Made by a program: the position numbers and the translations under genes. This document shows, piece after piece, positions 21,226-55,887 of a stretch of 64,000 nt of DNA. This DNA comes from the human T2T-CHM13v2.0 reference genome, Homo sapiens. Positions within the stretch are counted from its first letter, which is position 1. Every line of letters begins with the position of its first letter. Where the stretch lies: the NCBI RefSeq assembly GCF_009914755.1, contig NC_060941.1, one strand, 5' to 3'. The notes under the pieces are model-generated. The model saw only the letters and a list, made by a program, of their open reading frames with translations. It was not told the origin of the DNA and did not search any database.

Positions 21226-21348
21226 TTTCGTCTCGGCACCAGACATAAGGCAGTTCAATGTCAGGCCATTGCCCTAAACAGTTCCCGATGCCAAGAACTG
21301 ACAAATTGCTACTTTGGTTTCAATGGATGGTCAAAAGGGATCATCAGG
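21226..21348 (+). pseudogene. RDM1 exon 3 copy (FRLGTRHKAVQCQAIALNSSRCQELTNCYFGFNGWSKGIIR)
   Basis: Acceptor gactgtag; 123 nt open. Matches recalled RDM1 VRLGTRHKAVQHQALALNSSKCQELANYYFGFNGCSKRIIK. The donor reads GC (gcaaac) rather than GT. Confidence 0.88.
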
Positions 21349-23787
21349 GCAAACCTTGTAGATTTTCTTTCACCAACCCTATTCTCCTTTCAACATTGAA
21401 ATCCTAGACTTTAGACAGAAATATTGAACTGGGTTGTAGTGAGGAGATATGAGAGGCCTCCTGCCATTGAGGATAAGTGGATATGTCTGAATTGGCCTGC
21501 TACCTAGAATTAATAATCTCAATCACTTGGAGGGTGGTATCCATAATTTTCTCCACTATTTGTGCCACCACACCCGGCTATTTTTAGTAGAGATGGGGTT
21601 TCACCATGTTGGCCAGGCTGTTCTTGAACTCCTGGCCTCCACCTGCCTCAGCCTCCCAAAGTGCTGGGATTACAGGCATGGGCCACCATGTCCAGCCAAC
21701 CAAACCTTTTTCTCTTTTTCTTTCCTTTTCTTTCTTTTCTTTTCTTTTTTTTTTTTTTTGAGATGGAGTTTCACTCTTCTTGCTCAGGCGGGAGTGCAGT
21801 GGTGTGATCTTGGCTCACTGCAACCTTTGCCTCCCGGGTTACAGCGATTCTCCTGTCTCAGCCTCCTGAGCATCTGGGATTACAGGCATGCACCACCACA
21901 CCTGGCTAATTTTTGGTATTTTTAGTAGAGACGGGGTTTCACCATGTTGGTCAGGCTGGTCTCGAACTCCTGACCTCAGGTGATCCTGCCGCCTCAGCCT
22001 CCCAAAGTGCTGGTATTACAGGCGTGAGCTGCCGCGCAGGCCGTAAGTATGATTCTTATACAATAATCAGCGGCTTTGCTGTGAACCTTGGAAGTGGTCA
22101 TGCTATTGAATGGCATTGTTTGTATTCCCCATTCACTTCTACAGTGGCACAAATGTTATAGGCTGTGCCTAAAGGAAACCTGATGATTAACAAAGAGTCC
22201 CTGAACAGAGTTGCTCCTGCTTCACAGTGCTGAAGGCTTAGAGACTGAGAGATCCTAATTAAGTTACCACAGACCTTTATTTGCTTGTAAGAGACGGCCC
22301 TGATTGCTCTCAGCTTTCCAACCTGGGCAGCCCTGCTAGTGAAAGTATTACTTCCTTGGTCATCAACTGTCAAGTCTGAGTAACAACCTTTAAGAACCAA
22401 ACTGAATGTGTGGGTTGTTTACCTCTCCCTCATACTCGAAGGTATCCCTTGCACACCTTCAAAACCTCTTAGACCAAAAGCCTTATGGCTCTAGTTTGCC
22501 TGGAAGGAAGTTGTATTGTCTATAGAGTATGTGTGCCAGTTTCTGCAATAAAATGTTCAAATGTTCTCTCTCTCTGAAACTTTGTTCATTGTATCTGGTG
22601 GAATTTTGGTTCTCAGGGAGTAGACACCTGGCCCTTGCTTCTAATGTGAAGTGTCTACCAGCCCAGTGGTCTCTATTCCAGATTTGAACTTACTTTGACC
22701 CCCGCCTTATTATGTCTTAGAATTTAATCATATCATTATTATTATTTTTGAGATACAGTTTCACTCTGTCACTCGGGCTGGAGTGCAGTGGCGCGATCTT
22801 GACTCACTGAGACCTCCGCCTCCCGGGTTCAAGCAATTCTCATGCTTCAGCCTCCCGAGTAGCTGGGATTATAGGCGTGGGCCACCACGCCTGGCAAATT
22901 TTTGTATTATTAGGAGAGATAAGGTTTCACCACGTTGACCAGGCTGGTCTTGAACTCCTGACCTCAGGTGATCCGCCTGCCTCGGCCTCGAAAAGTGCTA
23001 GGATTACAGGCGTGAACCACCACGCCTGGCCACCATTTAATCATATTATGATTGAACATTTTCGTTTCCACAGTTTTGTATTTCTTATGTTATTATTCCT
23101 TAGTTCCTATCTGTAAGATCATAAAGTCCTTTGAACCAAACACAGTTAATATTTTATACATATGTTAAAAACTGAGGGCTGGGTGTGGTGGCTCACGCCT
23201 GTAATCCAAGCACTTTGGGAGGCCGAGGCAGGTGGATCATGAGGTCAGGAGATCGAGACCATCCTAGCTAACACTGTGAAACCCCATCTCTACTAAAAAT
23301 ACAAAAAATTAGCCAGGCGTGGTGGCAGGCACCTGTAGTCCCAGCTGAGGCAGGCAGGAGAATGGCGTGAACCCAGGAGGCAGAGCTTGCAGTGAGCCGA
23401 GATCGCGCCACTGCACTCCAGCCCCAGCCCGGGTGACAGAGTGAGACTCCGTCTCAAAACAAACAAACAAAAAACAAAACAAAACAAAACAAAAAAACTG
23501 AGGTGTGAGCCCGGACATGGGGACTCACACCTGTAATCTCAGCACTTTGGGAGGCCAAGGCAGGAGGATCACTTGAAGCCAGGAGTTTGAGACCAGCCTG
23601 GGCAACAAAGCGAGACCATGTCTTAAAAAAAAAAAATTACCCAGGCACAGTGGTGTGTACCTGTAGTCCCAGCTACTCTGGAGGCTCAGGCAGGAGGATC
23701 ACTTGAGCCCAGGAATTCCAGGCAGCAGTGAGCTATGATAGTGCCACTGAACTCTAGCCTGGGTAACAGAGTGAGCCCCTATAAAAA

Positions 23788-23862
23788 GAAGGAAGGAAGG
23801 AAGGGAAGGAAGGAAGGAAGGAAGGAAGGAAGGAAGGAAGGAAGGAAGGAAGGAAGGAAGGA
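23788..23862 (+). repeat. (GGAA)n microsatellite from an Alu tail
   Basis: Seen directly. Confidence 0.95.
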
Positions 23863-24500
23863 AAACAAGTGTGAGATGAGGAGATGAGGAAACTTTCAGA
23901 AAAATGCTCTTATTTTCTGCTTTTAGAAACCAAAAGATGAAATGGTAAGGCATCAGGTGGGAATCAAAGTAAGTTCAAAGATGGAATAGAGACCACTGGG
24001 CTAGTAGACACTTCACATTAGAAGGTTGCAGTGAGCCTAGCCCGCGCCACTGCACTCCAGCCTTGGGTGACAGAGCGAGACTCTGTCTCAAAAAAAAAAA
24101 AAAAAAAGAATGTCTCATCATGGGGTACTACCATTATACGCAGGATTTTTTTTTTTTAGATGGAGTTTCACTCTTGTTGCCCAGGCTGGAGTGCAATGGT
24201 GCGATCTCGGCTCACTGCAACCTCAGCCTCCCAGGATCAAGCGATTCTCCTACCTCAGCCTCCCCAGTAGCTGGAATTACAGGCACACACCACCACACCC
24301 GGCTAATTTTTTGCATTTTTAGTAGAGACGGGGTTTCTCCATGTTGGTCAGGCTAGTCTCGAACTCCCGACCTCAGGTGATCTGCCTGCCTCGGCCACCC
24401 AAAGTGCTGGGATTATAGGCATGAGCCACCGCGCCCGGCCTGTGCAGGAAGTTTTAGAACGAAAAAGATTCTGAATTGATCCTTGCTAACTTTATTTCAG

Positions 24501-54247: not shown

Positions 54248-54729
54248 CTGCTCTACCACGTAGCTGATTATGACACCTACCCCTCTCAGACACTATCAGC
54301 TCCAATTTGGACCTATTCTTTGAATTTTTTTTTTTTTTTCAAAATTGATCTCTACTTCTCATTCAAACCTCCCATCTCCCACATCATCTGACCTCCACAA
54401 GTTCACGTACACAATTCCCCAGAATCACGTAGGACAACTAGGAAATTCTTTTTAAGGATTTCATGCTAGACTGTTAATAGCTTAGTGAGTTATACTTTTA
54501 TTTGAATATGTTAAACTCCTTAAAAAAAAACCTCTTAAGTCAAAAGATTGCATCTTTCATGGTTATTTCCCACAAGCTCAGTAGGTAGTGCTAATACTTA
54601 GTACCCTAATCTCCAGCAGGAGTGAAGATGAAACTGGCTGCTATAAATATGTCCCTACCCTTTCATGCTGTCAGGCCATTTTGGGACTGTACCCTAAACA
54701 TGCACTTGAATGGAAGTTCTAAACTCAGG

Positions 54730-55020
54730 GATCGTGGCGGTGTGGCTGGAGGACAGGAACAGGCTCAGAGGCCGGCCCCAGGTAGGAGGGGCGAGGGAGC
54801 GATCCGGGCGCCGCCCCTCCCCTCGCCTGCGCCTCTTTTTTTAAAAAAAGCGTGGGCGTGCCTTGCGCAGGCGCAGTACTGCGCGAGCCTTAGCCGCGCA
54901 GGCTCAGCGAAGGGAGGCTGGCGGATCTGCTACCTTTTGCGGTTCCCACCAAGAGTGACAAAACCTTGCTAGTGTGGGAGCTGAGCTCTGGACCCACGGC
55001 CGACGCTTTGCATGTGAGCC
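54730..55020 (+). promoter_or_regulatory. CpG-island promoter of the RDM1 copy with NRF1-type motif and GC boxes
   Basis: Dense CpG; TGCGCAGGCGCA at 54864-54875 (NRF1-like); CCGCCC and GGGGCG Sp/KLF-type boxes; directly precedes RDM1 exon 1. Confidence 0.75.
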
Positions 55021-55887
55021 TGGGCCAGGGTGGAGGGAGGGATGGAGAAAGCCGCCCACCTGCTAACTGGGAGTTCCAGAGTCCTGCTTCAGCACCTCAC
55101 CTGCCTCAGCCTCTGCTGAAGGACTCTTTTTTTTTTTTTTTTTTTTTTTTGAGACACACTGTTGCTCTGTTGCCCAGGCTGTAGTGCAGTGGCGCGATCT
55201 CTGCCCACTGCAGCATCCGCCTCCCGGGTTCAAGCGATTCTCCTGACTCGGCCTCCGGAGTAGCTGGGATTACAGGTGCCCGCCACCACACCTGGCTAAT
55301 TTTGTATTTTAGTAGAGGCGGGGGTTTCACCTTGTTGGCCAGGCTGGTCTCGAACTCCTGACCTCAGGTGATCCGCCCGCCGTGGCTTCCCAAAGTGCTG
55401 GGATTACAGGCGTGAGCCACCGCGCCTGGCCCGCTGAAGGACTCTTAATTCTAGAGGGGACCCCAGCAGACAGCTACCCCAAACAGATTTTTAGAGTCCC
55501 GGAGAGGTACCTCTCCAGTCAGCACATTTTACCTTCTAGGACTTCTTCAAGTTTAGGATCTTAAGAAGAAAACTTGTTGGTTAAGTGGGAAGTGTTTTGA
55601 ATTGCATCCTTCTCGAAGAAGCGTTTGGGGAATATGAAGGCATGGGCGGTTTTGTTTTCTGGGCGTGAGATTTCATGCGCTTATTTGGCGTAGGACCACC
55701 CCCACAGCTTTCACTGTTCACAGCATTTTCCCAGTTTGACCTTTTGTATTCAGTCCGGGTCTTCCCAAATGCTGCAGTGGCCCATTCTGGTTTCTATGGC
55801 GTCATTAAGTTTTATTCAGCAATGGCTGTCCACGGAGCCCAAAAGGCATGCCACCGGAAGCAGCTTTTTCAGACATCTCCTGTCAAG
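54918..55887 (+). pseudogene. RDM1P5: RDM1 partial duplicate, exon 1 (54918-55013) and exon 2 (55708-55887), encoding the RRM; start codon ATG>CTG
   Basis: Exon 1 reads (L)ADLLPFAVPTKSDKTLLVWELSSGPTADALH|gtgagc. Exon 2 reads cccacag|LSLFTAFSQFDLLYSVRVFPNAAVAHSGFYGVIKFYSAMAVHGAQKACHRKQLFQTSPVK|gt. This matches RDM1 residues ~1-92. The copy symbol is inferred from locus context. Confidence 0.85.
55127..55431 (-). mobile_element. AluS in intron 1 of the RDM1 copy
   Basis: TSD gctgaaggactctt. Confidence 0.95.

What the first reader, a model, noticed from the sequence alone, without database searches (positions are those of the whole stretch)
21226..55887. Circularly permuted RDM1 gene wrapped around an LRRC37 pseudogene and a LYZL6 tail
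Seen: RDM1 exons 3 and 6 lie at 21.2-24.6 kb, while the RDM1 promoter and exons 1-2 lie 30 kb downstream on the same strand. The two halves are complementary and do not overlap: exon 2 ends ...SPVK and exon 3 starts FRLGTRHK, with no exon present twice. Recalled knowledge: the source locus has LYZL6 directly upstream of RDM1 and an LRRC37 copy downstream. Inference: the order [RDM1 3' half - LRRC37 - LYZL6 end - RDM1 5' half] is what a LYZL6-RDM1-LRRC37 segment gives if it is circularised and reopened in RDM1 intron 2. A one-unit, out-of-phase slice of a tandem array gives the same order. A circular-DNA intermediate would be a notable mechanism for dispersal of the LRRC37 core duplicon.
Basis: partly seen in the sequence, partly recalled or inferred. 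Interest (0 to 1): 0.8.

Follow-up and report, generated by a model that had tools for sequence, protein, structure and literature searches.

The report
Permuted RDM1 copy around LRRC37 pseudogene
An old 37-kb duplicated block beside PLXDC1 carries the back half of the RDM1 gene ahead of its front half, because one full turn of the LYZL6-RDM1-LRRC37 unit was copied starting and ending inside one RDM1 intron; the pattern is real, but this kind of rearrangement has been described before.

Summary
Window 19190-56354 (37.2 kb, + strand) reads: RDM1 intron-2 3' part, exon 3, exon 6; LRRC37A11P; a 2-kb LYZL6-upstream segment ("X"); LYZL6 last exon; RDM1 promoter, exons 1-2 and intron-2 5' part. Against the RDM1/LYZL6 locus (C17:36.86-36.89 Mb) this gives two parallel diagonals in swapped order, with no overlap.

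The two ends lie 1,609 bp apart in RDM1 intron 2, and the missing piece is an inverted Alu cluster. Both halves are equally diverged from the RDM1 locus (K2P about 0.11).

- The 17q12 RDM1 locus is not the donor. It is a relocated sister copy of the same age. Cattle and sheep gene order places RDM1-LYZL6 between PLEKHM1 and RPRML (human 17q21.31).
- The RDM1 3' half upstream of LRRC37 is generic, seen at 7 other LRRC37 loci. Only X, the LYZL6 tail and the RDM1 5' half are special here.
- A circle is not shown.

A one-turn circular or looped intermediate (about 0.4) and a one-unit slice of a lost tandem duplication (about 0.35) fit about equally. Circular intermediates for segmental duplications, including a core duplicon, are already in print. 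I file this as a new, old member of a known kind.

The parts
19183..19190 (+). Left junction of the duplicated block. Homology to RDM1 intron 2 starts here, at C17:36875906.
   Evidence: Homology to the RDM1 locus and to three other LRRC37 loci all starts at window 19190. Upstream there is only unique sequence and an interspersed repeat.
19190..21225 (+). 3' part of RDM1 intron 2, with later Alu insertions such as 19343-19621 and 20258-20549.
   Evidence: 87-89% identity to C17:36875906-36873758.
21226..21350 (+). RDM1 exon-3-like segment, the start of the DSRM_RDM1 domain.
   Evidence: 6 of 6 genome matches are itself, the RDM1 locus and four LRRC37 loci.
21558..22038 (.). Alu at the site of a window-specific 3.7-kb deletion that removed RDM1 exons 4 and 5.
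   Evidence: The RDM1 locus and the A-type LRRC37 copies both keep about 3.7 kb here.
24443..24921 (+). RDM1 exon-6-like segment (about 24460-24590) and its downstream flank.
   Evidence: 89% identity to C17:36868237-36867766.
24918..27749 (+). Spacer between the RDM1 3' end and LRRC37 exon 1, shared with other LRRC37 loci.
27750..47598 (+). LRRC37A11P body (LRRC37F of Giannuzzi et al., my equation of the two names), collinear with other LRRC37 loci from exon 1 to the 3' flank.
   Evidence: Hub annotation.
47598..47650 (+). Head-to-tail closing junction. The LRRC37 3' flank, ending in an Alu poly(A), is joined to the start of segment X. The stretch is A/T-rich and holds no hybrid Alu.
47651..49930 (+). 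Segment X, the sequence that lies just upstream of LYZL6 at the RDM1 locus. It begins with an Alu shared with that locus.
   Evidence: There are 4 copies in the genome, and only this one is preceded by LRRC37.
49931..50577 (.). Interspersed repeat at the site where 7.3 kb (C17:36890233-36882918, the LYZL6 5' exons) is missing.
   Evidence: One search lists more than 30 dispersed copies at 88-90% identity.
50577..52397 (+). LYZL6 3' part. The last coding exon lies at about 50717-50785 and is reused as the start of the last annotated LRRC37A11P exon (50719-51059).
   Evidence: hub annotation.
52398..54872 (+). LYZL6-RDM1 intergenic sequence and RDM1 promoter region, with an Alu at 53549-53860.
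54873..55013 (+). RDM1 exon-1-like segment, which is exon 1 of the transcribed pseudogene RDM1P5.
   Evidence: hub annotation.
55709..55887 (+). RDM1 exon-2-like segment (RRM part).
55888..56354 (+). 5' part of RDM1 intron 2. It ends inside a sense Alu at that Alu's A-rich linker, which is the right junction at C17:36877515.

Best explanation
About 45-55 million years ago, one event placed one full turn of the ancestral unit [X - LYZL6 - RDM1 - LRRC37] into the FBXO47-PLXDC1 interval. The unit came from the ancestral 17q21.31 locus.

The 3' flank of LRRC37 was first joined head-to-tail to the sequence upstream of LYZL6 (the closing junction, window 47598-47650). This happened either by circularisation of an excised or copied segment, or by copying once round a loop. 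The ring was then opened, or the copying started and stopped, at an inverted Alu cluster in RDM1 intron 2. That cluster (1.6 kb) was lost. RDM1 therefore ended up split, with exons 3-6 at the left edge and the promoter plus exons 1-2 at the right edge.

Later decay removed RDM1 exons 4-5 and most of LYZL6. The orphaned RDM1 promoter now starts the RDM1P5 transcript, and the LYZL6 last exon ends the LRRC37A11P transcript.

Shown: the permuted order, both junctions, the equal divergence, and that the closing junction is unique in this genome. Inferred: the single event, the ring or loop, and breakage at the inverted Alus.
For: - Two parallel, same-strand diagonals in swapped order.
- The block is one period long. 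Its ends do not overlap and lie 1,609 bp apart in RDM1 intron 2.
- The missing piece is an inverted Alu cluster: arms of 178 nt, 84% complementary, 349 nt apart. The RDM1 boundaries of other LRRC37 copies fall in the same cluster, which marks it as a repeated break site.
- Both halves are equally diverged, about 0.112 against 0.114 (my weighted means).
- The LRRC37-to-X junction occurs in 1 of 4 copies of X in the genome. No LRRC37 3' sequence lies near the other copies of X. So no trace of a tandem array of the large unit survives.
- The closing junction has no hybrid Alu, as in published circle cases, where homology at the junctions is absent.
- Precedents in print: 24 human duplication cluster pairs with the same order flip (PMC7450558, Results section read), and a ring model for the lcr16a core duplicon in which PLA2G10 exons are shifted behind NPIP (PMC9132208, passages read).
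- The age fits the published presence of the F copy in marmoset and macaque (PMC3530683, passages read).
Against: - The 1.6-kb gap is far larger than the 1-27 bp changes at resolved circle junctions.
- The right end and both sides of the closing junction lie in or beside Alus, whereas the published cases stress non-homologous repeats at the breaks.
- LRRC37 has a strong record of tandem duplication: lemur has 12 tandem copies, mouse and rat have two, and macaque has recent tandem pairs. The 17q12 locus itself holds a tandem LRRC37 5' module. A tandem intermediate is therefore plausible at the right time.
- A repeated break site in intron 2 would also explain why both ends of a tandem slice fall there.
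- The empty acceptor site could not be examined, and no target-site duplication was found.
Confidence: 0.4

Rival explanations
1. Out-of-phase slice of a tandem duplicate. The ancestral unit [X-LYZL6-RDM1-LRRC37] was first duplicated head-to-tail at 17q21.31. A piece reaching from RDM1 intron 2 of unit 1 to RDM1 intron 2 of unit 2 was then copied to the PLXDC1 site. Both cuts fell at the same fragile inverted Alu cluster. The extra unit at the donor locus was later lost.
For: - It gives the same order, junctions and equal divergence.
- LRRC37 went through tandem phases in several lineages, and two tandem copies are inferred for the Euarchontoglires ancestor.
- The 17q12 locus holds a head-to-tail LRRC37 5' module in two full copies plus one partial copy.
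- An LRRC37 intron fragment lies about 21 kb upstream of X at 17q12, in the same orientation.
- The intron-2 Alu cluster is a repeated boundary, so two cuts there are less of a coincidence.
Against: - No second copy of the LRRC37-to-X junction exists: 1 of 4 copies of X has it.
- No second X or RDM1 5' half lies near any 17q21 LRRC37 copy.
- The flank upstream of the A-type copies is unrelated to the LRRC37 3' flank.
- The 17q12 LRRC37 fragment abuts an unrelated duplicon from C17:64.18-64.20 Mb, so it is weak evidence.
- A slice within 1.6 kb of exactly one unit is unlikely without the break-site assumption.
Confidence: 0.35
2. Two separate insertions. An ordinary LRRC37 duplicon with its RDM1 3' flank landed first. 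A second piece [X-LYZL6-RDM1 5' half] later landed directly behind it.
For: - The left part alone looks like the standard LRRC37 duplicon found at other loci.
- Duplications tend to land beside earlier ones (general knowledge, recalled).
Against: - It needs the same orientation, direct adjacency, complementary content and intron-2 end points only 1.6 kb apart.
- The two parts are equally diverged from the RDM1 locus.
- The window's left boundary (C17:36875906) differs from that of the other LRRC37 copies, so the left part is not simply a copy of one of them.
Confidence: 0.1
3. Local reshuffling. A collinear copy [X-LYZL6-RDM1-LRRC37] arrived at the PLXDC1 site and was later rearranged in place, for example by a local tandem duplication followed by two flanking deletions.
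For: Local tandem duplication and deletions are common in this family.
Against: It needs at least three extra steps with matched break points. The window holds no duplicated remnant. No RDM1 3' piece lies downstream of the window (6 of 6 matches are elsewhere).
Confidence: 0.05

Closest known systems
Circular-DNA-mediated segmental duplication pairs (Chicote et al. 2020, PMC7450558)
   Same: The order flips from A-B/C-D to B-A/D-C on one strand. The copy is non-tandem, about 3 Mb from the related locus. The closing junction shows no extended homology. The break points lie in interspersed repeats.
   Different: The opening point lacks 1.6 kb instead of 1-27 bp. The copy is much older and only 86-91% identical, so probably below the level of the annotated duplications used in that screen. 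The left half is multi-copy. The donor locus has since decayed, so the comparison is with a sister copy. This pair was not found in that paper's main text, nor in the one supplementary file held (8,559 characters).
lcr16a/NPIPB founding copy with PLA2G10 exons shifted behind NPIP (Damert 2022, PMC9132208)
   Same: A core duplicon with a flanking gene cut in an intron. That gene's parts end up on either side of the core gene. The paper explains this by a ring intermediate.
   Different: There, re-insertion is by SVA-SVA recombination and leaves chimeric elements with target-site duplications. Here no chimeric repeat or target-site duplication was found.
Ordinary LRRC37 core duplicon copies (Giannuzzi et al. 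2013, PMC3530683)
   Same: The LRRC37 body has the RDM1 3' half as its 5' flank, and the copy lies on chromosome 17q.
   Different: Only this copy is followed by X, the LYZL6 tail and the RDM1 5' half. Its left boundary in RDM1 intron 2 is its own. The two LRRC37 papers do not mention RDM1 or LYZL6 (0 occurrences each).
Cattle KIT colour-sidedness translocations through circular intermediates (Durkin et al. 2012)
   Same: A germline mammalian duplication whose copy is a cyclic permutation of the source.
   Different: Recent and polymorphic, with both junctions resolved. I saw this work only as a reference and in a search listing; the details are recalled.

Membership tests
Circular-intermediate duplication pair (order flip A-B/C-D to B-A/D-C) | Two parallel same-strand diagonals with swapped block order | tested here: met
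   window 19190-31221 matches C17:36875906-36855448, and window 47651-56354 matches C17:36893399-36877515.
Circular-intermediate duplication pair (order flip A-B/C-D to B-A/D-C) | The outer ends of the copy are adjacent in the ancestral sequence (published cases: 1-27 bp change) | tested here: not met
   the ends are 1,609 bp apart. There is no overlap. The missing piece is an inverted Alu cluster.
Circular-intermediate duplication pair (order flip A-B/C-D to B-A/D-C) | The outer ends of the ancestral block are joined inside the copy without extended homology | tested here: inconclusive
   the junction is confined to window 47598-47650, which is A/T-rich, and there is no hybrid Alu. It was not resolved to the base because the donor no longer exists intact.
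Circular-intermediate duplication pair (order flip A-B/C-D to B-A/D-C) | Only two copies, not in tandem | tested here: inconclusive
   Met for the LYZL6 tail and the RDM1 5' half (2 of 2 matches). X has four copies, and only the window's is preceded by LRRC37. Not met for the left half, which has 4-7 other loci.
Circular-intermediate duplication pair (order flip A-B/C-D to B-A/D-C) | Ancestral and derived copies fixed by outgroups that lack the derived copy | not testable with these tools
   No primate or other mammalian genomes were on hand. Indirect evidence only: cattle and sheep gene order and the F copy in marmoset and macaque.
LRRC37 core duplicon copy | Collinear homology to other LRRC37 loci from exon 1 to the 3' flank | tested here: met
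LRRC37 core duplicon copy | RDM1 3' half as the 5' flank | tested here: met
Slice of a tandem array | The same head-to-tail junction present at the donor locus or in another copy | tested here: not met
   In this genome, 1 of 4 copies of X has LRRC37 in front of it. Other species could not be tested.
Processed (retro-) pseudogene of RDM1 | No introns, poly(A) tail | tested here: not met
   Intron 1 and both ends of intron 2 are retained, together with promoter and intergenic sequence.

The most novel reading that the evidence does not exclude
An inverted Alu cluster in RDM1 intron 2 was a fragile site that repeatedly launched the LRRC37 core duplicon in early anthropoids. At the PLXDC1 site, the product is a one-turn ring of LYZL6-RDM1-LRRC37 that was linearised at that cluster. 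This would be the oldest ring-derived human duplication and the first for LRRC37. The same burst moved the working RDM1 and LYZL6 genes from 17q21.31 to 17q12.
Probability: 0.3. Interest if true: 0.6.

Novelty: new member of a known kind. Interest (0 to 1): 0.4.

Why it matters
How dispersed segmental duplications arise is still open, and order-flipped copies are the main sequence evidence for ring intermediates. This locus adds an old example attached to a core duplicon.

It also points to a specific inverted Alu cluster as a repeated break site for LRRC37 duplicons, and that can be tested.

Human RDM1 and LYZL6 appear to be relocated copies whose ancestral site, beside the MAPT inversion region, has decayed. 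Two annotated transcripts here are built from orphaned parts: RDM1P5 starts at the RDM1 promoter, and LRRC37A11P ends in the LYZL6 last exon.

Tried and rejected
- Target-site duplication at the block edges: none. The longest shared word is 9 bases and lies away from the left junction (reached by 19 of 1000 shuffles). The local alignment score is 10 against a shuffle mean of 9.7 (151 of 300 shuffles reach it).
- LRRC37 3' sequence upstream of the other copies of X: none.
- The flank upstream of the A-type LRRC37 copies compared with the LRRC37 3' flank, which would have shown a tandem junction: only Alu matches.
- An RDM1 3' half downstream of the window that could complete RDM1P5: none. 6 of 6 exon-3 matches lie elsewhere.
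- A retrocopy origin: rejected, because introns are retained.
- Treating the 1.8-kb LRRC37 fragment at 17q12 as a clean remnant of a periodic array: weakened, because it abuts a different duplicon.
- The mouse paper gave no gene order.
- The supplement of PMC7450558 held as text is one file of 8,559 characters with no chr17, LRRC37, RDM1 or LYZL6. Its full tables may list pairs that I could not see.
- Genome searches here are heuristic. One search did not list its own self-match, so absences rest mainly on the short-query searches and on my own BLAST of fetched loci.
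Full report
OBSERVATION. An exon-3-like frame starts at 21226 and a later RDM1 exon lies at about 24460-24590. The exon-1-like frame ends at 55013 and the exon-2-like frame ends at 55887. Pfam places the 21226 frame at the start of the RDM1 DSRM domain (profile positions 1-25; E 1.4e-7, above the cut-off). 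The exon-2 frame gives a weak RRM hit (E 0.023, below the cut-off). So the C-terminal domain lies 34 kb ahead of the N-terminal one. The window holds no internal duplication other than Alu-type repeats and the repeats inside LRRC37 exon 1.

COMPARISON WITH THE RDM1/LYZL6 LOCUS. The exon-2 region has 2 of 2 genome matches: itself and C17:36877870-36878264 on the minus strand, at 92%. I fetched C17:36830001-36930000 and compared it with the window. After dropping multi-copy hits, the collinear matches form two parallel diagonals.
- Left diagonal: window 19190-26601 (RDM1 intron-2 3' part, exon 3, exon 6 and downstream) matches 36875906-36864798. Window 28064-31221 (LRRC37 exon 1) matches 36862800-36855448.
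- Right diagonal: window 47651-49930 (segment X) matches 36893399-36890233, just upstream of LYZL6. Window 50577-52397 (LYZL6 3' part) matches 36882918-36880488. Window 52694-56354 (intergenic sequence, RDM1 promoter, exons 1-2 and intron-2 5' part) matches 36880506-36877515.

The frame at 50690-50785 parallels the terminal LYZL6 frame at that locus. The window lacks 3.7 kb between 21564 and 22045. It also lacks 7.3 kb of LYZL6 (36890233-36882918). At that site sits an interspersed repeat (49931-50577) with more than 30 dispersed copies listed.

EDGES OF THE BLOCK. The block is window 19190-56354, 37.2 kb.
- On the left, homology starts at about 19183-19190, which is C17:36875906.
- On the right, homology stops at 56354, which is C17:36877515. 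This lies inside a sense Alu, right after its A-rich linker.
- Outside the block I found only unique sequence and dispersed repeats, with no paralogy to any LRRC37 locus.
- The edges show no target-site duplication.

The two end points do not overlap and are 1,609 bp apart in RDM1 intron 2. The missing piece is nearly all Alu. In RDM1 orientation it holds the rest of the sense Alu, a partial sense Alu and two antisense Alus. These form inverted repeats of 178 nt at 84% complementarity with a 349-nt spacer, and of 142 nt at 75% with a 192-nt spacer.

WHAT IS GENERIC AND WHAT IS SPECIAL. The RDM1 3' half is a standing 5' flank of the LRRC37 duplicon.
- The exon-6 region matches 7 other loci on C17, at 32.96, 46.41, 47.15, 47.37, 47.88, 65.77 and 69.03 Mb.
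- The exon-3 region has 6 of 6 matches: itself, the RDM1 locus, and 46.42, 47.37, 65.78 and 69.04 Mb.
- This agrees with gene lists that put RDM1P1 beside LRRC37A4P and RDM1P2 near LRRC37A2.
- The body from 31.2 to 47.1 kb is collinear with other LRRC37 loci.
- In contrast, the LYZL6 tail and the RDM1 5' half occur only here and at the RDM1 locus.
- X has four copies: the window, the RDM1 locus, C17:69.038-69.040 Mb and C17:47.871-47.873 Mb. Only in the window is it preceded by LRRC37.

Three other LRRC37 copies that I fetched (69.03, 47.36 and 46.42 Mb) share homology with the window from position 19190 onward. They run further up intron 2 and end inside the same Alu cluster, at 36876825-36877322 for the two A-type copies and 36876808-36877671 for the 69.03 Mb copy. 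So the window's left break point is its own, and the cluster is a repeated boundary.

THE 17q12 LOCUS IS NOT THE DONOR.
- Divergence between the window and that locus is the same across blocks: K2P 0.125 and 0.096 (RDM1 3' half), 0.134 (LRRC37 exon 1), 0.112 (X), 0.110 (LYZL6 tail), 0.127 (intergenic sequence and exon 1) and 0.097 (exon 2 and intron 2). The RDM1-LRRC37 spacer is 0.158.
- My length-weighted means from those rows are about 0.112 for the left half and 0.114 for the right half.
- The window is no closer to that locus than to the other copies. In the RDM1 3' part (755 shared sites) the values are window-17q12 0.117, window-others 0.108-0.113 and 17q12-others 0.114-0.122, whereas the 69.03 Mb copy and the A-type copies differ by 0.070-0.074 (the two A-type copies by 0.009).
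- In X (1,647 sites) the values are 0.114, 0.117-0.128 and 0.112-0.125, against 0.069. This is a near three-way split.
- At 17q12, LRRC37 is present only as a head-to-tail module of spacer plus exon 1, in two full copies and one partial copy.
- A 1.8-kb LRRC37 intron fragment also lies there, at 36914149-36915982, 21 kb upstream of X. It abuts an unrelated duplicon shared with C17:64.18-64.20 Mb.

Cattle and sheep gene lists read ARHGAP27, PLEKHM1, RDM1, LYZL6, RPRML, GOSR2. Dog has RDM1, ARHGAP27 and LRRC37 together. Published work places the ancestral LRRC37 locus beside these genes. In human, the 47.87 Mb locus should be LRRC37A17P next to RPRML. I infer this because four LRRC37 clusters between 46.35 and 47.92 Mb follow the same order as the four LRRC37 names in the gene list. 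That locus keeps the sequence upstream of X, X itself, 2 kb of the LYZL6 5' region, then jumps to RDM1 exon 6 and LRRC37. So the donor was the ancestral 17q21.31 locus. The human RDM1-LYZL6 pair at 17q12 is a relocated sister copy of about the same age. With a neutral rate of about 1-1.2e-9 per site per year (recalled), K of about 0.11 gives roughly 45-55 million years. This fits the published presence of the F copy in marmoset and macaque. That LRRC37F equals LRRC37A11P is my inference from its 17q12 position.

THE CLOSING JUNCTION. Homology to the 3' flank of an A-type LRRC37 copy (L017) holds up to the poly(A) of an Alu fragment at about window 47598. Homology to the X side starts at the 5' end of an Alu at 47651, which the RDM1 locus shares. 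Between them lie about 50 A/T-rich bases. There is no hybrid Alu, so Alu-Alu crossover did not make this junction.

MECHANISM. A head-to-tail joint plus a one-period length can come from a ring or loop copied once round, or from a tandem duplicate cut at the same place in two neighbouring units.
- For the ring: the near-exact one-period length, the uniqueness of the joint, the lack of any remnant of a large-unit tandem array, and the precedents.
- For the tandem slice: the family's repeated tandem phases, and a fragile inverted Alu cluster that would draw both cuts.
- Against a textbook ring: the 1.6-kb gap, compared with 1-27 bp in resolved cases.

I put the ring or loop at about 0.4, the tandem slice at about 0.35, two separate insertions at about 0.1 and local reshuffling at about 0.05. 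Breakage at the inverted Alus followed by resection is my inference. It explains why the cluster itself is missing, and it applies under both main models.

WHAT IS KNOWN.
- Order-flipped duplication pairs were reported for 24 human cluster pairs and read as ring products (PMC7450558; abstract, Results section and passages read).
- A ring model for a core duplicon with a split flanking gene exists for lcr16a (PMC9132208, passages read).
- The two LRRC37 papers hold no mention of RDM1, LYZL6 or PLXDC1.
- Searches for LRRC37 with RDM1 (6 papers) and for the RDM1P and LRRC37A11P names (14 papers) listed no title or abstract start that describes this structure. Of these I opened only three.

I therefore file it as a new, old member of a known kind. 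At 86-91% identity it is probably below the level of the annotated duplications used in the 2020 screen. That is my inference from the remark, in the passage read, that segmental duplications are typically more than 90% identical.

Noticed in passing
window 50690-51059: The last annotated exon of LRRC37A11P (50719-51059) begins at the LYZL6 last coding exon. The pseudogene transcript therefore ends in borrowed LYZL6 sequence.
   Followed up: partly
window 54873-55013 and 61276-61400: RDM1P5 starts at the copied RDM1 exon 1. It skips the exon-2-like segment and, by the hub table, runs antisense into the PLXDC1 3' end. A RefSeq silencer (54715-54954) overlaps the copied promoter.
   Followed up: no
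L016 (C17:47869264-47876998): This looks like a decayed remnant of the ancestral LYZL6-RDM1 site next to RPRML. It keeps the sequence upstream of X, X itself and 2 kb of the LYZL6 5' region. A 19.9-kb deletion then leads to RDM1 exon 6, followed by LRRC37. With the cattle and sheep gene order, this implies that human RDM1 and LYZL6 at 17q12 are relocated copies.
   Followed up: partly
L005-L006 (C17:36854398-36864507): The LRRC37 spacer-plus-exon-1 module is repeated head-to-tail downstream of RDM1, as two full copies and one partial copy. The period is about 4.2-4.9 kb.
   Followed up: partly
L010-L011 (C17:36904224-36915982): A 1.8-kb LRRC37 intron fragment abuts a duplicon of about 10 kb shared with C17:64.18-64.20 Mb at 87-90% identity. 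This shows a mosaic of duplicons between LYZL6 and the next genes.
   Followed up: partly
window 24918-27343: The spacer upstream of LRRC37 exon 1 also matches C18:31.91 Mb, C1:32.28 Mb and C10:27.28 Mb at 79-87% identity. These may be retrocopies or another duplicon.
   Followed up: no
L013 (C17:69037441-69037732): In the 69.03 Mb LRRC37 copy, X is joined through an Alu straight to the RDM1 intron-2 Alu cluster. This looks like an Alu-mediated deletion of 12.5 kb that removed LYZL6 and RDM1 exons 1-2. The Alu at the end of X is shared with the 47.87 Mb copy.
   Followed up: partly
window 22746-23459 and 10983-11679: Each of these stretches matches its own reverse complement at 74-77% identity. 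They look like inverted Alu pairs.
   Followed up: no
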